IMG/VR virus record: IMGVR_UViG_2617270948_000004 | Length of the DNA stretch: 17,167 nucleotides | Strand: one strand, 5' to 3' | Source: a virus | Lineage: Duplodnaviria; Heunggongvirae; Uroviricota; Caudoviricetes | In this document: one piece after another, positions 1-15,509 of the stretch | Numbering within the stretch: the first letter of the stretch is position 1 | Layout: each line of letters begins with the position of its first letter | Notes under the pieces: generated by a model | The model's input: the letters and a program-made list of their open reading frames with translations, nothing else | Databases searched by the model: none | What the model was told of the DNA's origin: nothing | Translations under genes and position numbers: made by a program

Positions 1-348
1 TTACGAATTACTACGGCGCTGTTGCTTTTCCGCATGTACGCGTTTCACTATCTTATAAATCCATTGCAGCGTCAGATTATATTTCTTCGCTAATTCGGCG
101 TAGTTGCGACCATCGCACTCGCTATAGATTTGGTAGTCACGCTCCGACGCCCGTCCGGAGATTCCTTTTGGGAAATAAATGCTTTGTCCACCCCAGTTAC
201 GCATCATTCGGTCGGCAATGGCAAAGCCCACATTTTCCGCCGATGAGCTGTCGAGATTGATGCTCTCAATCAGAACTTGCGATGCATGAAACGCCAGGTC
301 ATTAATGATCTCCGGTGTCCGGGCCATCTCTTTTGATTTTTGTATCAT
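1..348 (-). CDS. Mor/C-family phage transcriptional activator (Mu middle/late operon regulator-like)
   Basis: 115-aa ORF with ATG at 348 and GGAG about 8 nt upstream on the minus strand; stop codon at 1..3. The C-terminal half (GGQSIYFPKG...RNYAELAKKYNLTLQWIYKIVKR) resembles the helix-turn-helix region of Mu Mor/C as recalled from memory. It is transcribed divergently from the lysis and tail genes. Confidence 0.75.
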   Translation of the reverse strand: MIQKSKEMARTPEIINDLAFHASQVLIESINLDSSSAENVGFAIADRMMRNWGGQSIYFPKGISGRASERDYQIYSECDGRNYAELAKKYNLTLQWIYKIVKRVHAEKQQRRSNS

Positions 349-569
349 TTTTCATCTCCATATATCTTGCATCCTGAATAAGACCCGATGCGTGTAAAAC
401 CACGGATATACGCTAAGCAGTTGTCATTACTGCTACTCAATACATTCAACAAACAAATAAACAATCACCAAAAATATAAATCTTTAATATTAATGAACAC
501 CATAAATTCACAAAATAAATATATTGTTTGCGTTACGTTTCTTGTCAACTGGAGTATCATTTTACACGA

Positions 570-589
570 TACTGTATACACATACAGTA
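570..589. promoter_or_regulatory. LexA (SOS) box candidate TACTGTATACACATACAGTA
   Basis: Read directly: CTGT-N8-ACAG with flanking TA, 18 of 20 matches to the E. coli LexA consensus TACTGTATATATATACAGTA, with perfectly symmetric arms. It sits in the AT-rich divergent intergenic region between the Mor-like gene and the holin/endolysin operon. A -35-like TTGTCA lies at 542..547. Which promoter it controls is undetermined. Confidence 0.55.
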
Positions 590-885
590 TTATTTTTACC
601 TGTAGTATAAAAAGATCGTTTCCCTCACAGTCGCTAACTTTCTTAAACAAACTTTAAAAATCAAATAACTACTGACTACTCCCACGATCCACCATCCTCT
701 TTTCCCTGCATAATGACGCGCTTATTCGCCAGGTCACCTTTTGCTCTTTTATTAATGGGTGGATTTATTAGCGAGCATGTTCATTTATAGAGGATCTATT
801 TTTTAAAGTTATTTATTAAAGCTTTTTTCATTCTTCACTGGAGGGATCTGGCGACACTAAACGCTCACTTATCAGGAGATATCGT

Positions 886-1173
886 ATGAAAAAAGTCACT
901 TTTCCCCGGCTTTCCGGCTGGCTGGTCGCTTCCGTCGCGCTGTTTGTCGTGATCGGCTGGACATCTTCCGCACAGATCCCGGTAGTCATTTATAAACTAA
1001 GCCTGGTTTCGCTCTCCGCTGTGCTGGGATACTGGCTCGATCGCAGTCTGTTTCCCTGGGCGCGGCCTGACTCATTTTGCCCTTGGGAAGAGGCGCGATG
1101 CTGCGCGGCGGCAATGATTCGTCGGGCTATCATCGTTGCAGCCGTCTGCCTTTCCGTCGCGTTAGGACTTTAA
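886..1173 (+). CDS. Putative holin (small membrane protein with 3 predicted TM segments)
   Basis: 95-aa ORF with AGGAG about 8 nt upstream of the ATG. Three hydrophobic stretches (LVASVALFVVIGW, IPVVIYKLSLVSLSAVLGYWL, AIIVAAVCLSVALGL). Its stop overlaps the endolysin start (TAATG). The call is positional and topological; there is no family-level match. Confidence 0.5.
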   Translation: MKKVTFPRLSGWLVASVALFVVIGWTSSAQIPVVIYKLSLVSLSAVLGYWLDRSLFPWARPDSFCPWEEARCCAAAMIRRAIIVAAVCLSVALGL

Positions 1174-12905: not shown

Positions 12906-12907
12906 AT

Positions 12908-14404
12908 ATGGCAAGTGAATTTTTTACAATATTAACCAGCGCAGGCAAATCAAAAATTGCCTCTGCGCTGGCGGAGCAAAAACAGATCCGCCTACAAACG
13001 ATGGTAGTCGGCGATGGCAATGGTCATTATGTCGAGCCGACAGAAAGTCAGACCAAAGTTGTGCATGAAGTCTGGCGTGGGCAACTAAATACCTTAAAGA
13101 TTGCGCCTGATAATCCAGCCTGGGTTATCGCAGAGACTATTATTCCTGAACAAGTAGGTGGCTGGTACGTCCGCGAGGTTGGGCTACTGGATGCTGACGG
13201 CACGCTAGTAGCTATTGGCAAATTTCCGGAAACCTATAAACCGCTATTACCTACAGGCGCCAGTAAGCAAATTGTTATTCGCGCGGTTATGGAAGTGACC
13301 AATGCTGACGCGGTGACGCTTTTGATCGACCCTTCAGTCGTTATGGCAACCAGGGAGTATGTCGATGACGCGCTGAAAACACATCAGCAATCACGAAATC
13401 ATCCTGATGCGACGCTGACACAAAAAGGTTTTACACAGCTGAGCAATGCGACTAATAGCGATGATGAGACTAAAGCAGCCACGCCAAAAGCGGTAAAAAC
13501 GGCATATGACCTGGCAAATAGTAAAGCCGCCACTAGTCATGCTCATGCCTGGAATCAGATTACTGGTATCCCTGACGGTACGCTGACGCAGAAAGGGATC
13601 GTTAAACTTAACAACACGACAAATAGCGCCAGTACGACGGAAGCTGCAACGCCAAGTGCGGTTAAGGCAGTGTATGACCTGGCAAATAGTAAAGCCGCCA
13701 CTAGTCATATTCATGCCTGGAATCAGATTACCGGTATCCCTGATGGTACGCTGACGCAGAAAGGAGTCGTTAAACTTAACAACACGACAAATAGCACCAG
13801 TTCGACGGAAGCTGCAACACCAAGTGCGGTTAAGGCGGTGTATGACCTTGCTAATGGCAAGGCTTCGGCAAGTCATACGCACGCATGGGAGCAGATTACC
13901 AACATTCCCGACGCAACTCTTGGTAAGAAAGGAATTGTTCAGCTAAGCAGTATCGTCCCTAGTACCAGTACAACAGAAGCAGCAACGCCATACTCAGTTA
14001 AGGTTGCCTATGACCTTGCGAACACTAAAGCTCCGGCAAGCCATGCTCATCCATGGAATCAAATTACTGGTATCCCAGACGGTACGCTGACGCAAAAAGG
14101 GATTGTGAAGCTTAATAACACAACAAACAGCACCAGTACGACAGAGGCAGCGACACCCAGTGCGGTGAAGGCAGCAATGGACAAAGCAAATACAGCGTTG
14201 AATAACACCACTGCATCTATATCAGATGTCAGACTAGGTGCTAAATTTGATCAGGTTATGGCAAAAGGGGGGCGCTATGAATTCTCTGGTAATGTTCTGA
14301 CTGGGTTGAGAATTATCGGAGAAGTAGATGGAGATGATCTCGCTATATTTCGCCCACTTCAGATAAAGGTTAGAAATTCTTGGTATACGGTAGGGCAACT
14401 TTAA
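12908..14404 (+). CDS. Tail fiber protein (P2 gpH-like N- and C-termini with expanded internal repeats)
   Basis: 498 aa with GGAG RBS. The N-terminus (VGDGNGHYVEP...HEVWRGQLN...VGGWYVREVGLLDADGTLVAIGKFPETYKP) and C-terminus (VRLGAKFDQVMAKGGRYEFSGNVLTGLRIIGEVDGDDLAIFRPLQ) closely parallel P2 gpH as recalled; the middle is a repeat array. Confidence 0.85.
   Translation: MASEFFTILTSAGKSKIASALAEQKQIRLQTMVVGDGNGHYVEPTESQTKVVHEVWRGQLNTLKIAPDNPAWVIAETIIPEQVGGWYVREVGLLDADGTLVAIGKFPETYKPLLPTGASKQIVIRAVMEVTNADAVTLLIDPSVVMATREYVDDALKTHQQSRNHPDATLTQKGFTQLSNATNSDDETKAATPKAVKTAYDLANSKAATSHAHAWNQITGIPDGTLTQKGIVKLNNTTNSASTTEAATPSAVKAVYDLANSKAATSHIHAWNQITGIPDGTLTQKGVVKLNNTTNSTSSTEAATPSAVKAVYDLANGKASASHTHAWEQITNIPDATLGKKGIVQLSSIVPSTSTTEAATPYSVKVAYDLANTKAPASHAHPWNQITGIPDGTLTQKGIVKLNNTTNSTSTTEAATPSAVKAAMDKANTALNNTTASISDVRLGAKFDQVMAKGGRYEFSGNVLTGLRIIGEVDGDDLAIFRPLQIKVRNSWYTVGQL
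13406..14210 (+). repeat. In-frame tandem repeat array, about 4.8 copies of a 168-bp (56-aa) unit, inside the tail fiber gene
   Basis: Units begin at 13406, 13574, 13742, 13910 and 14078 (partial). Each encodes D(A/G)TLTQKG-V-LNNTTNS-S-TEAATPSAVKAVYDLANSKAATSH-H-WNQITGIP. Copies 2 and 3 are nearly identical at the nucleotide level; other copies differ mainly at synonymous positions. Confidence 0.9.
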
Positions 14405-15057
14405 TGGGATATAAAAATTTTACACTCTATAAACCAACAGAAAGTATTGGTGGTATTTTTTATCTAAAATCTGATGACGATGTTGATTGGTACGAGGCAC
14501 AAAAAAACTTTTCTACCGAAACGTTAAAAATTGCTTATGACAGCACAGGTAGAATTTGCATTGCGGATACTGATGCCTCAGCGATTTGGCCAATAAATTT
14601 ATCTATCAGTGAGATCTCATCTGAGAATGTTCCTGATGATTTTTCAACAAATGGGAAATGGCTCTGGAATGGCGAAAGTATAATCAGCTCTGTAACAATC
14701 GTAACCGCTAAAAAAAATAAAGTAGAGGATATCAAAAATCAACGCGATACCATCACAACCAACTACATCATCATCAACGACCATCACTTCCACAGTGATA
14801 CAAATAGCCGTATCCAACAGCTTTCACTCACTAAAATGGGAGCGGAGAAAAAAATTCCGCCAGGTTTAATGTGGAAAACTAAAAATGACGGTCTGATCGA
14901 GTTAACCAACGAAATCGCCGCCCAGTTTGAATCGGTAACAATGGATCACGATATGCGCTTATTGGCCAACGCCCAGCACCATATCGCGGCGGTGGAAGCA
15001 CTGGACGATATTCAGGCAGTGCTCGACTACGATTACTCCACAGGCTGGCAACCATGA
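14404..15057 (+). CDS. Tail fiber assembly protein (P2 gpG / Tfa-like)
   Basis: ATG at 14404 overlaps the fiber stop (TAATG). The N-terminal region DWYEAQKNFSTETLKIAYDSTGRICIADTDAS parallels P2 gpG [32 protein letters not shown]. AT-rich. Confidence 0.75.
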   Translation: MGYKNFTLYKPTESIGGIFYLKSDDDVDWYEAQKNFSTETLKIAYDSTGRICIADTDASAIWPINLSISEISSENVPDDFSTNGKWLWNGESIISSVTIVTAKKNKVEDIKNQRDTITTNYIIINDHHFHSDTNSRIQQLSLTKMGAEKKIPPGLMWKTKNDGLIELTNEIAAQFESVTMDHDMRLLANAQHHIAAVEALDDIQAVLDYDYSTGWQP

Positions 15058-15509
15058 GTAAAACCACTGTCTGGCTCGCTTGTTATAAGGGCCGAACAGA
15101 GCACCGTGGTGTTGCCCGACTGGCTGACTGGCTTACCCGTAAAGTGACACGTGGTAGTTATTCCCACTGTGAATTAGCCGTTAAGCATGGTGAAAAGAGT
15201 TACCTTTGTTACTCTGCATCACTACGCGATCGCGGCGTTCGGGGAAAGATAATGCCTTTACCGCCAGATAAGTGGGATATGCTGCCGCTCCAGGCCTGCC
15301 TTCAGGACGTGGAAACGTTTTTCCATAAACATGATGGCAAAAAATACGACTGGCGCGGAGCCTTAGGAATTATCACCGGCAATAAAGAACAGTGCGATCG
15401 CCTGTTTTGCAGTGAATTTTGTGCTGAATTCCTGCAATTAAAAGACAGCTGGCGATACTCACCAAATCACCTGTATGCCTTAGTAAGTAGCTGGCAATCC
15501 CATCCGTAA
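15054..15509 (+). CDS. Hypothetical Cys/His-containing protein; possible permuted papain-fold (NlpC/P60-like) hydrolase
   Basis: 151-aa ORF translationally coupled to the fiber assembly gene (ATGA overlap). Contains a His motif (SYSHCELAV) N-terminal to a Cys motif (LFCSEFCAEF), the order expected for circularly permuted papain-like enzymes. The function is inferred from motif order only. Confidence 0.45.
   Translation: MSKTTVWLACYKGRTEHRGVARLADWLTRKVTRGSYSHCELAVKHGEKSYLCYSASLRDRGVRGKIMPLPPDKWDMLPLQACLQDVETFFHKHDGKKYDWRGALGIITGNKEQCDRLFCSEFCAEFLQLKDSWRYSPNHLYALVSSWQSHP

What the first reader, a model, noticed from the sequence alone, without database searches (positions are those of the whole stretch)
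1..15509. Headless contractile-tail module with its own lysis cassette and Mor-type activator: candidate R-type tailocin or head-deleted Mu-like prophage
Within about 15 kb the window encodes an activator, holin candidate, endolysin, and a full set of contractile tail and baseplate genes in Mu-like order. Between the last lysis gene (ending 2108) and the first tail gene (2226) there is only a 117-bp gap. In Mu-like phages that position holds about 10 kb of terminase, portal, protease and capsid genes. A tail cluster with lysis genes but no head genes is the defining architecture of R-type tailocins, and Mu-derived tailocins have been described in Pseudomonas. The alternative is a defective prophage, which the sheath nonsense codon supports. 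Head genes could also lie beyond the window's left edge, although that would be a non-canonical order.
Basis: partly seen in the sequence, partly recalled or inferred. Interest (0 to 1): 0.65.

Follow-up and report, generated by a model that had tools for sequence, protein, structure and literature searches.

The report
Headless phage-tail weapon island, recently broken
The window is a whole chromosomal island that encodes a contractile phage tail with lysis genes but no head, probably a bacterial killing particle; related gut bacteria including Salmonella and some E. coli keep it at the same site under selection, but this copy has a stop codon in the sheath gene.

Summary
The window holds a Mor activator, a holin, an SLT endolysin and a full contractile tail and baseplate set. 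Only 117 bp lie where the relative phage BcepMu has an 8.4-kb head module. The sheath gene has an in-frame TGA where E. coli has TGG.

The window is the whole island. Near-identical public contigs continue into lysC-pgi on the left and yjbD-rluF on the right, so no head genes lie outside it.

The same headless cluster sits at the lysC junction in E. coli (203 of 5426 complete genomes), Salmonella (LT2 STM4198-4219, the 'Def4' remnant), Superficieibacter, Phytobacter and Dryocola. In those genera nearly every gene I checked is intact; Phytobacter gpJ is disrupted. dN/dS is 0.03-0.25. dS is as high as in the flanking core genes.

A near-consensus LexA box, conserved in all eight orthologous loci and absent from about 75 related loci, sits between Mor and the holin gene.

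Best reading: an old, domesticated, BcepMu-derived R-type tailocin cassette, probably SOS-induced and Mor-activated. In this non-coli Escherichia lineage the sheath nonsense mutation inactivated it recently. Particle production and killing are untested. It is a new member of a known kind, of moderate interest.

The parts
1..348 (-). Mor/C-family transcription activator (115 aa), homologue of BcepMu gp01. It is divergent from the lysis and tail genes. Its stop codon is the first base of the window, and lysC lies 54 bp beyond it in the source lineage.
   Evidence: Pfam PF08765, E 7e-38. tblastn with BcepMu gp01 gives 49% identity. Flank shown.
349..885 (.). Divergent regulatory region. It replaces roughly 10 kb of BcepMu early genes (gp02-gp20: transposase, repressor and others).
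   Evidence: No homologue of gp02-gp20 in the window. Eight-locus alignment.
570..589 (.). LexA (SOS) box TACTGTATACACATACAGTA, matching 18 of 20 positions of the consensus TACTGTATATATATACAGTA. It overlaps a sigma-70-like promoter on the plus strand: TTTACA (561-566), 16-nt spacer, TACAGT (583-588). The same conserved bases read TAAAAT as a possible -10 on the minus strand.
   Evidence: Exact CTGT-N8-ACAG at 572-587. The half-sites are invariant in all 8 orthologous loci in a region of 62% mean identity. No box of this quality (TACTGTAT...ATACAGT) occurs in the other related loci of L004-L082. Promoter scans.
799..885 (+). Conserved block upstream of the holin gene (TTTTTAAAGTTATTTATTAAAG ... 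GACACT ... TTATCAGGAG). Candidate Mor-dependent late promoter plus ribosome-binding site.
   Evidence: Conserved across five genera. The motif TAAAG-N3-6-ATTAAA occurs only here and at 2124-2137 in the window, against 0.08 expected; the motif was defined after seeing these sites.
886..1173 (+). Holin (95 aa, hydrophobic segments), homologue of BcepMu gp21.
   Evidence: PF13272, E 3e-27. phrog_1528 holin. 50% identity to gp21.
1176..1781 (+). Lytic transglycosylase endolysin (201 aa) with an N-terminal signal-like hydrophobic segment, homologue of BcepMu gp22.
   Evidence: PF01464 SLT. 51% identity to gp22. Sequence.
1794..2108 (+). Membrane protein (104 aa) with an N-terminal transmembrane segment, homologue of BcepMu gp25. 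No Rz/Rz1 spanin genes lie between it and the endolysin.
   Evidence: 46% identity to gp25 and a predicted TM segment. No gp23 hit. No lipobox ORF in the lysis region.
2109..2225 (.). Head-deletion junction of 117 bp, where BcepMu-like prophages carry gp26-gp36 (TerS, TerL, portal, F, G, protease/scaffold, capsid). It holds a second conserved promoter-like block (TTTTTTCTCTAAAGCAGATTAAAAGA, motif at 2124-2137). The intrinsic terminator present here in orthologues is deleted in this lineage.
   Evidence: 8.2-8.4 kb in complete relatives. Alignment. Motif.
2226..2681 (+). Gp37-family protein (role in the tail not established here), orthologue of Salmonella STM4215, whose crystal structure is PDB 2GJV.
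   Evidence: PF09646, E 5e-33. PDB 2gjv, E 6.5e-54.
2678..2875 (+). Small conserved protein (65 aa), homologue of BcepMu gp38.
   Evidence: 46% identity to gp38. phrog_895.
2865..4289 (+). Tail sheath gene, interrupted by an in-frame TGA at 3348-3350 (Trp162 to stop). It is a pseudogene in this lineage.
   Evidence: PF04984 and PF17482. The same split (161 aa + 289 aa) is called in contigs L083-L085, L087 and L088 of this lineage. 71% identity to BcepMu gp39.
4289..4813 (+). Tail tube.
   Evidence: PF04985, E 5e-56.
4864..5269 (+). Tail assembly chaperone pair: a gpE/G-like ORF at 4864-5181, plus an overlapping 42-aa ORF at 5141-5269 that RefSeq annotates as a GpE-family protein in E. coli.
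   Evidence: PF10109 and gene calls. RefSeq annotation. phrog_166.
5371..7731 (+). Tape measure protein (786 aa).
   Evidence: PF10145. Intact here, but split in contigs L083, L087, L089 and L093 of the same lineage.
7731..8684 (+). gpU-like tail protein with a helical-repeat-like C-terminal extension.
   Evidence: PF06995, E 9e-34.
8684..8893 (+). Tail protein X.
   Evidence: PF05489, E 1e-23.
8881..9921 (+). gpD-like baseplate hub.
   Evidence: PF05954.
9931..10632 (+). gpV spike (OB-fold domain).
   Evidence: PF04717.
10731..11090 (+). gpW/gp25 baseplate wedge protein.
   Evidence: PF04965.
11081..12196 (+). gpJ baseplate wedge protein.
   Evidence: PF04865, E 6e-63.
12189..12905 (+). gpI baseplate/fibre-attachment protein. 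Its C-terminal part varies between strains.
   Evidence: PF09684. Gene call. Identities of 65-92%.
12908..14404 (+). Tail fibre (498 aa): conserved collar N-terminus, five Phage_fiber_2 repeats and a strain-variable C-terminus.
   Evidence: PF12571 and PF03406. Only residues 1-315 align with E. coli Z226-1. Internal repeat at 13473-13900.
14404..15057 (+). Fibre assembly/chaperone-type protein (DUF4376 plus Caudo_TAP).
15054..15509 (+). Conserved 151-aa protein of unknown role, orthologue of Salmonella STM4198. It is the last gene shared by all three loci whose right ends were available (window lineage, E. coli, Salmonella).
   Evidence: 78-93% identity in E. coli and Salmonella. phrog_1128. 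No Pfam hit.
16016..17167 (+). Cargo gene at the right end: a GT4 LPS N-acetylglucosaminyltransferase in a low-GC stretch. yjbD follows 240 bp after its stop codon in the source lineage.
   Evidence: NCBIfam NF012028, 673.8 bits against a cut-off of 618. PF00534. GC 0.37-0.38. Flank.

Best explanation
The window is the complete lysC-yjbD island of a non-coli Escherichia lineage.

Shown: the island descends from a BcepMu-like transposable myophage. It has lost three blocks: the early/transposition/repressor region (gp02-gp20), the Rz/Rz1 spanins, and the whole head and packaging module (gp26-gp36). It has kept the Mor activator, holin, SLT endolysin, the gp25-like membrane protein and every tail, baseplate and fibre gene. 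The same architecture sits at the same lysC junction in five genera, and at the same yjbD junction in the three loci whose right ends were available. It is under purifying selection.

Inferred mechanism: DNA damage leads to LexA cleavage and frees the conserved LexA-box promoter between Mor and the holin gene. Mor then activates two conserved late-type promoters, one before the lysis cassette and one before gp37. Tails assemble without heads. Holin and the secreted transglycosylase lyse the producer cell and release particles. The strain-variable fibre directs the particles to the LPS of related bacteria, which they kill by contraction and membrane puncture. This is the behaviour of an R-type tailocin.

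The LPS-modifying cargo at the right end may change the producer's own receptor and so protect it. That step is speculation.

In this particular lineage the sheath gene acquired a TGG-to-TGA nonsense mutation recently, so this copy most likely no longer makes functional particles.
For: 1. Gene content and one-to-one correspondence with BcepMu gp01, gp21, gp22, gp25 and gp37-gp51. There is no hit to gp02-gp20, gp23/24 or gp26-gp36.

2. About 40 related loci carry the full gp26-gp36 block, 8.2-8.4 kb, exactly between the gp25 and gp37 homologues.

3. Near-identical contigs (99.5-100%) continue into lysC-pgi-yjbE-H on the left and yjbD-rluF-ccdBA-pepE-yjbB-metH on the right.

4. Orthologous headless loci lie at the pgi-lysC junction in E. 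coli (203 of 5426 complete genomes, 143 of them with at least 80% coverage), Salmonella (STM4198-4219), two Superficieibacter species, Phytobacter and Dryocola. The yjbD junction is confirmed for the window lineage, E. coli and Salmonella. K-12 has the empty site.

5. Genes are intact in those loci, except gpJ in Phytobacter. NG86 dN/dS is 0.03-0.25 for the lysis and tail genes. E. coli-Salmonella dS is about 0.6-1.7, against 1.26 for lysC, 1.59 for rluF and 0.71 for pgi.

6. The LexA box is invariant in all 8 orthologous loci. It is absent from the complete prophages and from the other headless relatives.

7. Two conserved promoter-like blocks share a motif upstream of the holin gene and of gp37.

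8. The fibre, the C-terminus of gpI and the chaperone are replaced as a module between strains, while the rest is 90-99% identical.

9. On the window branch the count of nonsynonymous to synonymous changes is 20:174, against 25:178 on the E. coli branch (Fisher p = 0.64). Constraint held for most of the branch, so the nonsense mutation is recent.
Against: No particle, killing or expression data exist for this locus in any host in the literature I could search. Salmonella papers call it only a prophage remnant ('Def4') or a 'BcepMu' PHASTER region.

This copy has a sheath nonsense codon, and contigs L083, L087, L089 and L093 of the same lineage also have splits in the tape measure and gpD.

Most E. 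coli genomes lack the island.

The spanins are missing, so outer-membrane disruption is unexplained.

The best sigma-70 match at the LexA box points towards the holin gene, not towards Mor. The order LexA then Mor then late genes is therefore a model and not something read off the sequence.

The shared late-promoter motif was defined after seeing the two sites, and it is degenerate in E. coli.

Purifying selection could partly reflect time spent in phages if the island moved between genera by recombination of the flanks. K-12 shows no deletion scar.
Confidence: 0.7

Rival explanations
1. The island is an inert, decaying prophage remnant. It survives only by chance, or because of its cargo genes (the LPS glycosyltransferase here, gtrABC in Salmonella). 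The tail genes have no present function in any host.
For: The sheath has a nonsense codon here, and contigs L083, L087, L089 and L093 have further frameshifts. gpJ is disrupted in Phytobacter. ISEc53 is inserted in the LexA box in several E. coli genomes. The island is absent from about 96% of complete E. coli genomes. The spanins are lost. The Salmonella literature labels it a remnant.
Against: Some twenty genes stay intact across five genera, with dS near or beyond 1 and dN/dS of 0.03-0.25. A host LexA box has been gained and conserved, and the promoter blocks are conserved within an otherwise poorly conserved intergenic region. The fibre module is exchanged between strains. The window branch shows no relaxed constraint.
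Confidence: 0.12
2. The cassette is functional, but not as an inter-bacterial killing particle. Possible roles: a tail donor for a capsid-forming element elsewhere in the genome, a device acting on eukaryotic cells, or an SOS-triggered lysis module that releases other goods.
For: Selection on the tail genes shows that they function but does not show what the function is. No bacteriocin assay exists. The lysis cassette is separated from the tail genes by a terminator and a separate promoter block in most orthologues.
Against: The island has no toxin cargo, AAA+ ATPase or other eCIS/PVC-type gene. The fibre has phage-type collar and repeat domains with a strain-variable tip, as in receptor-specific tailocins. 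No partner capsid element was seen near the locus. The gp36 homologue upstream of gp37 is lost, which may argue against head joining; this is an inference.
Confidence: 0.13
3. The island is part of a complete phage whose head and replication genes lie elsewhere: beyond the window edges or in a second locus.
Against: Both flanks are core chromosomal genes for at least 8-10 kb. The same is true in E. coli and Salmonella for 12-15 kb. No transposase or repressor remains.
Confidence: 0.02

Closest known systems
Burkholderia phage BcepMu (Bcepmuvirus; AY539836) and its prophage relatives in Photorhabdus, Xenorhabdus, Pantoea, Serratia and Burkholderia
   Same: Same gene order and homologous proteins for Mor (gp01, on the minus strand at the left end), holin gp21, SLT gp22, gp25 and gp37-gp51. 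The sheath is 71% identical and the tube 70%. BcepMu also has an LPS/acyl-modifying cargo gene at the right end (gp53 acyltransferase).
   Different: The window lacks gp02-gp20 (transposase, repressor and others), Rz/Rz1 and gp26-gp36 (terminase, portal, capsid). It has a LexA box that the related prophage and headless loci of L004-L082 lack (BcepMu itself was not scanned). It sits at a fixed chromosomal site instead of transposing.
Salmonella Typhimurium prophage remnant Def4 (LT2 STM4198-STM4219; the 'BcepMu' region of PHASTER surveys)
   Same: It is the orthologous locus. It lies between lysC and yjbD, has the same genes in the same order, and has the same LexA box and promoter blocks. Nucleotide identity to the window is about 78%. 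It is reported as ancestral and nearly invariant in S. Typhimurium.
   Different: Salmonella has gtrABC (STM4204-4206) inserted between gpV and gpW, and different right-end cargo. Its sheath gene is intact. The papers I could search describe it only as a remnant.
R-type pyocins of Pseudomonas aeruginosa (R2, PA0614-PA0629)
   Same: A headless contractile-tail cluster with P2-family tail proteins and its own holin and endolysin. It has a fixed chromosomal site, is induced by DNA damage through a dedicated activator, and its fibre recognises LPS. This comparison rests on established knowledge and on the discussion.
   Different: Different ancestor and gene order (P2/PS17-like, with the baseplate before the sheath). 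The regulation uses PrtR and PrtN rather than a LexA box plus Mor. The pyocin cluster has its own lytic genes of a different type.
Rp4 tailocin / syringacin of Pseudomonas syringae (derived from an SfV-type Mu-like phage; Hockett et al. 2015, as summarised in PMC4684702)
   Same: An independent co-option of a Mu-like myophage tail into a killing particle with a lysis cassette.
   Different: It comes from a different Mu-like lineage (SfV-like, not BcepMu-like), sits at a different site (trpE-trpG or mutS-cinA), uses PrtR/PtbA-type regulators, and keeps its spanins.
Other headless BcepMu-family clusters found here (Lonsdalea, Lelliottia, Chromobacterium)
   Same: They have the same tail genes with the head module missing.
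   Different: Lonsdalea and Lelliottia keep the transposase region; Lonsdalea also keeps Rz and gp26. Chromobacterium has Mor directly next to gp37, with no lysis genes between. None has the LexA box. They appear to be separate head-loss events.

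Membership tests
R-type tailocin (phage tail-like bacteriocin) | A complete, intact set of contractile tail genes: sheath, tube, tape measure and chaperones, hub, spike, wedges, fibre and chaperone. | tested here: not met
   All the genes are present, but the sheath gene of this window carries an in-frame TGA at 3348-3350. 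The set is intact in the orthologous loci of E. coli, Salmonella, Superficieibacter and Dryocola. The family passes this test; this copy fails it.
R-type tailocin (phage tail-like bacteriocin) | No capsid, portal, terminase, replication or integration genes in or next to the cluster. | tested here: met
   No Pfam hit and no BcepMu tblastn hit to such genes. The flanks are core genes.
R-type tailocin (phage tail-like bacteriocin) | Its own lysis genes for release. | tested here: met
   Holin plus SLT endolysin. Spanins are absent, so the cassette is incomplete by phage standards.
R-type tailocin (phage tail-like bacteriocin) | A fixed chromosomal locus conserved across strains and species and kept under purifying selection (domestication). 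| tested here: met
   The same lysC junction is found in five genera. dN/dS is 0.03-0.25.
R-type tailocin (phage tail-like bacteriocin) | Stress (SOS) inducible expression through a dedicated regulator. | tested here: inconclusive
   A conserved near-consensus LexA box and a Mor activator are present. No expression data exist, and the orientation of the promoter is unresolved.
R-type tailocin (phage tail-like bacteriocin) | Production of headless contractile particles that kill related bacteria. | not testable with these tools
   This needs induction, EM and spot assays. No report was found in the searchable literature.
BcepMu-like transposable phage (Bcepmuvirus) | A Tn552/IS1604-type transposase, a repressor and a complete head module. 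| tested here: not met
   gp08-gp10, gp17 and gp26-gp36 are absent. The island derives from this family but is not a member of it as a phage.
eCIS / PVC / Afp-type injection system | An Afp-type gene set with an AAA+ ATPase, a tail terminator/ruler pair and toxin cargo. | tested here: not met
   Pfam and PHROGs show only P2/BcepMu-type tail proteins and no ATPase or toxin.

The most novel reading that the evidence does not exclude
An uncharacterised tailocin may have been resident at lysC-yjbD since before Escherichia and Salmonella diverged. In this reading, a BcepMu-type phage lost its repressor and was rewired directly to the host LexA regulon while keeping its own Mor activator. It releases particles without spanins, and it carries interchangeable LPS-modifying cargo (GT4 here, gtrABC in Salmonella) that protects the producer from its own particles. 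Salmonella 'Def4' would then be an active weapon, not a remnant.
Probability: 0.35. Interest if true: 0.7.

Novelty: new member of a known kind. Interest (0 to 1): 0.5.

Why it matters
R-type tailocins are well studied in Pseudomonas, but I know of few natural ones characterised in the Escherichia/Salmonella group.

If this conserved cassette is active, then S. Typhimurium, many other Salmonella serovars and about 4% of complete E. coli genomes carry an SOS-inducible killing particle that has so far been filed as a dead prophage.

That would bear on three things: strain competition in the gut, the effects of antibiotics that induce the SOS response, and the search for natural scaffolds for engineered tailocins against enteric pathogens.

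The locus also offers a graded series for studying how phages become bacterial weapons. The series runs from complete phages, through head-deleted forms that keep the transposase, to the fully stripped and LexA-wired form.

For this particular window the practical message is narrower: it is a recently inactivated copy.

Tried and rejected
1. Head genes outside the window. Rejected: exact-protein look-ups recovered 99.5-100% identical contigs whose flanks are core genes.

2. The sheath stop as a sequencing error. Rejected: the same split sheath appears in independent assemblies and metagenomes (contigs L083-L085, L087 and L088).

3. The published 'ST131 tailocin' of E. coli as the same locus. 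Rejected: that is a complete P2-like prophage with pyocin gene order.

4. BceTMilo as a BcepMu-derived tailocin. Rejected: it is P2/KL3-derived.

5. The Pseudomonas sheath relatives (about 62% identity) as Rp-type tailocins. Rejected for the one locus checked, L057, where ORFs of terminase, portal and capsid size lie upstream; BcepMu head proteins also hit the other Pseudomonas loci.

6. A deletion scar in the K-12 empty site. None found, so whether the island was lost or gained in E. coli remains open.

7. Hidden spanins. There is no lipobox ORF in the lysis region, and the embedded 53-aa ORF has no signal.

8. Rfam families in the window. None at gathering score.

9. Overall enrichment of LexA-like sites in the window. 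Not enriched: 5 sites with up to 1 mismatch against 4.8 expected. The case rests on the single exact, conserved site.

10. Species identification of the source. Only narrowed to an Escherichia lineage whose flanks are 91-95.5% identical to E. coli.

11. The scan of species-representative genomes returned no Escherichia or Salmonella locus, so those came from the other collections.

12. Frye et al. 2005, on prophage induction in Salmonella, is not held in the library.

Full report
**What is in the window.** ORF listing and Pfam, PHROGs and NCBIfam scans give one coherent unit.
- A Mor-family activator lies on the minus strand at 1-348.
- On the plus strand come a holin (886-1173), a signal-bearing SLT lytic transglycosylase (1176-1781) and a 104-aa membrane protein (1794-2108).
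- After a 117-bp gap come a Gp37-family protein, a 65-aa protein, the sheath, the tube, the chaperone pair, the tape measure, gpU, X, D, V, W, J and I, a fibre, a fibre-assembly protein and a conserved 151-aa protein ending at 15509.
- The sheath frame holds TGA at 3348-3350. E. coli has TGG there, so the change is Trp162 to stop.
- Downstream lie a doubtful 96-aa ORF and a GT4 gene (16016-17167). NCBIfam identifies the GT4 gene as an LPS N-acetylglucosaminyltransferase, above its curated cut-off.
- Nothing resembling a capsid, portal, terminase, transposase, integrase or repressor is present.

**The window is the whole island.**
- Exact-protein look-ups with Mor and with the 151-aa protein recovered contigs 99.5-100% identical to the window. 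One of them, GCA_000601195.1, is 100% identical over 1-10348.
- To the left, lysC starts 54 bp beyond the Mor stop codon, followed by pgi, yjbE-H, psiE and the mal genes.
- To the right, the GT4 stop codon is the last base of the window, followed by yjbD, rluF, ccdBA, pepE, yjbB and metH.
- Head genes beyond the edges are thus excluded.
- These flanks are 91-95.5% identical to E. coli. No complete E. coli genome matches lysC-pgi better than about 91% over its length. The source is therefore an Escherichia lineage outside E. coli proper, not identified further.

**Ancestry.**
- Direct comparison with phage BcepMu (AY539836) shows one-to-one homology with gp01 (Mor), gp21 (holin), gp22 (SLT), gp25 and gp37-gp51. 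The sheath is 71% identical.
- Three blocks are missing. These are gp02-gp20 (early genes, Tn552-type transposase, repressor), gp23/24 (Rz/Rz1) and gp26-gp36 (TerS, TerL, portal, F, G, protease/scaffold, capsid and two small genes).
- Among the loci found with the sheath protein in one genome per species, about 40 carry the full gp26-gp36 block. It spans 8.2-8.4 kb, exactly between the gp25 and gp37 homologues. These loci come from Photorhabdus, Xenorhabdus, Pantoea, Mixta, Serratia, Buttiauxella, Burkholderia, Pandoraea, Pseudomonas and others.
- The 117-bp gap is thus a true head-deletion junction.

**A fixed site across genera.**
- The same headless arrangement is seen in E. coli. There, 203 of 5426 complete genomes have a match, all chromosomal, and 143 cover at least 80% of the window at about 91-92% identity. 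The arrangement is pgi, lysC, Mor on the minus strand, holin, SLT, the gp25-like gene, gp37 and the tail genes.
- It is seen in Salmonella, where the annotation maps it to LT2 STM4198-STM4219. This is the 'Def4' remnant of the Salmonella literature and the 'BcepMu' region of PHASTER surveys. Those surveys report it in 60 of 151 serovars and in 99-100% of Typhimurium and Heidelberg isolates.
- It is also seen in two Superficieibacter species, Phytobacter and Dryocola.
- The right-hand (yjbD) junction could be checked only in the window lineage, E. coli and Salmonella.
- E. coli K-12 has the empty site, with yjbD and lysC 252 bp apart and no recognisable scar.

**Selection.**
- In these loci every lysis and tail gene is full length without stops, except gpJ in Phytobacter and the sheath here.
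- Nei-Gojobori estimates give dN/dS of 0.03-0.25 for Mor, the lysis genes and the structural genes, in pairs spanning Escherichia, Salmonella, Superficieibacter, Phytobacter and Dryocola.
- E. coli-Salmonella dS is about 0.6-1.7 for island genes. The flanking genes give 1.26 (lysC), 1.59 (rluF) and 0.71 (pgi).
- This amount of synonymous change with intact genes is not what a dead remnant would show. The island's divergence is like that of its neighbours, which fits long residence.
- Transfer by recombination of the flanks cannot be excluded.
- The fibre, the C-terminal part of gpI and the chaperone differ as a block between strains, while the rest is 90-99% identical. This is the pattern expected if receptor specificity still matters.

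**Regulation.**
- The Mor-holin intergenic region aligns poorly across genera (62% mean identity) except for two blocks.
- The first block is CATTTTACA followed by TACTGTAT-N4-ATACAGT, a near-consensus LexA box at 570-589 (18 of 20 positions). Its half-sites are invariant in all eight orthologous loci.
- No box of that quality occurs in any of the other related loci, whether complete prophages or other headless forms.
- The box overlaps a plus-strand sigma-70-like promoter (TTTACA, 16 nt, TACAGT) at the same position in seven of the eight loci. The same conserved bases can be read as a minus-strand -10 (TAAAAT) facing Mor. I cannot tell which promoter is real.
- The second block lies 60-85 nt upstream of the holin start. 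A similar block lies in the gap before gp37. The two share TAAA(G)-N3-6-ATTAAA(A)G, which occurs nowhere else in the window (0.08 expected). I defined the motif after seeing these sites, and it is degenerate in E. coli.
- Most orthologues have an intrinsic terminator between the gp25-like gene and this second block. This lineage has lost it.
- My reading is that LexA replaced the lost phage repressor and that Mor drives two late promoters. This is inference.

**State of this copy.**
- The sheath nonsense codon is present in the five of six left-flank contigs whose sheath genes were called (L083-L085, L087, L088). Contigs L083, L087, L089 and L093 also have a split tape-measure gene and a split gpD gene.
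- I polarised substitutions with Salmonella as outgroup. The window branch has 20 nonsynonymous and 174 synonymous changes in 16 island genes. The E. coli branch has 25 and 178 (Fisher p = 0.64).
- Constraint therefore held for most of the branch, and the inactivation is recent.
- A sheath truncated at residue 161 cannot build a contractile tail. This copy is most likely non-functional unless the TGA is read through at a useful rate.

**Comparison with known systems.**
- In function the cassette looks like an R-type tailocin. It is a headless contractile tail with its own lysis genes, an activator, a probable link to DNA damage, a fixed locus and a variable fibre.
- It is not related by descent to the R pyocins, which are P2/PS17-like and have a different gene order.
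- It is not related to BceTMilo, which is P2/KL3-like.
- It is not related to the SfV-like Rp4 tailocin of Pseudomonas syringae.
- The E. coli 'ST131 tailocin' paper describes a complete P2-like prophage.
- No paper in the searchable library links BcepMu-type elements to tailocins, or characterises Def4 or the E. coli locus functionally.
- The locus itself is known and annotated as a remnant. What is new here is the argument that it is a domesticated, LexA-wired cassette. I file it as a new member of a known kind.

**Other headless relatives.**
- Lonsdalea loci lack gp27-gp36 but keep the transposase region, Rz and gp26.
- A Lelliottia locus lacks the head genes and Rz but keeps the transposase region.
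- Ten Chromobacterium species have Mor directly next to gp37, with no lysis genes between.
- Head loss has therefore happened several times in this phage family.

**Weak points.**
- There are no experimental data.
- The missing spanins leave release unexplained.
- The promoter orientation at the LexA box is unresolved.
- The role of the LPS-modifying cargo as self-protection is a guess. It rests only on the recurrence of such genes at or in the island: GT4 here, gtrABC and an acetyltransferase in Salmonella, and gp53 acyltransferase in BcepMu.

Noticed in passing
window 16016-17167 (and 15510-16015): The right end of the island carries an LPS N-acetylglucosaminyltransferase gene (NF012028) in a low-GC stretch (0.37-0.38). 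Its closest E. coli matches are plasmid-borne genes at about 70% identity. At or in the same island Salmonella has gtrABC and an acetyltransferase, and BcepMu has an acyltransferase. The recurrence of LPS-modifying cargo suggests receptor modification, possibly self-protection.
   Followed up: partly
L001 30700-32624; L002 30774-32698: In E. coli the same right-end slot holds a nucleotidyltransferase-domain gene plus a slipin-family gene instead of the glycosyltransferase. This could be a defence-type gene pair. I did not scan it against PADLOC.
   Followed up: no
L096 3349-5777 (E. coli N32; the ISEc53 annotation also appears in hits H7, H8 and H10): In E. coli N32, an ISL3-family ISEc53 carrying a ClbS/DfsB-family gene is inserted in the middle of the LexA box and splits it. 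All structural genes stay intact. This should change the regulation of the cluster in that strain. Three other E. coli hits carry the same IS annotation, but their insertion sites were not mapped.
   Followed up: partly
window 2109-2225 against L001 17109-17252: Orthologues have a clear intrinsic terminator (for example CCCCACCC...GGGTGGGGATTTTTT) after the gp25-like gene. This lineage has a short deletion that removes it.
   Followed up: partly
window 1782-2108: There are no Rz/Rz1 spanin genes. The endolysin is followed directly by the gp25-like protein, which has one N-terminal transmembrane segment. BcepMu, Photorhabdus and Lonsdalea relatives keep about 600 bp of Rz/Rz1 at this position. 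How the outer membrane would be breached is unexplained.
   Followed up: partly
L083, L087, L089, L093: These contigs of the same lineage carry two extra disruptions: the tape measure is split into 293 + 493 aa and gpD into 259 + 53 aa. This suggests further decay after the sheath mutation.
   Followed up: partly
L085 10403-11752 (lysC of the source lineage): lysC next to the island is much more diverged from E. coli (dS 0.74, about 86% nucleotide identity) than pgi beside it (dS 0.24). This hints at recombination at the island border.
   Followed up: no
L092 13591-14201: A ccdA/ccdB toxin-antitoxin pair lies between rluF and pepE in the right flank of the source lineage. It is absent from K-12 and from the two E. 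coli loci examined.
   Followed up: no
L017, L020, L022 (Lonsdalea); L006 (Lelliottia); L041-L046, L049, L059, L061, L076 (Chromobacterium): These are independent headless derivatives of BcepMu-like phages at different stages. Some keep the transposase region. The Chromobacterium ones have Mor directly beside gp37 and no lysis genes between. None has the LexA box.
   Followed up: partly
window 13473-13900: The fibre gene contains an internal tandem duplication of about 260 bp at 86% identity, within the Phage_fiber_2 repeat region.
   Followed up: no
window 15054-15509: A conserved 151-aa protein (orthologue of STM4198, phrog_1128, no Pfam hit) closes the shared part of the island in Escherichia and Salmonella. 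Its role is unknown.
   Followed up: no
phage collection hits H22-H26: Short records deposited as 'Escherichia phage ECO95 1-6-1' and 'Salmonella phage S.Kent 1-2-1' (1.8-4.2 kb, unannotated) match parts of this tail cluster at 75-87% identity. Their origin and meaning are unclear.
   Followed up: no
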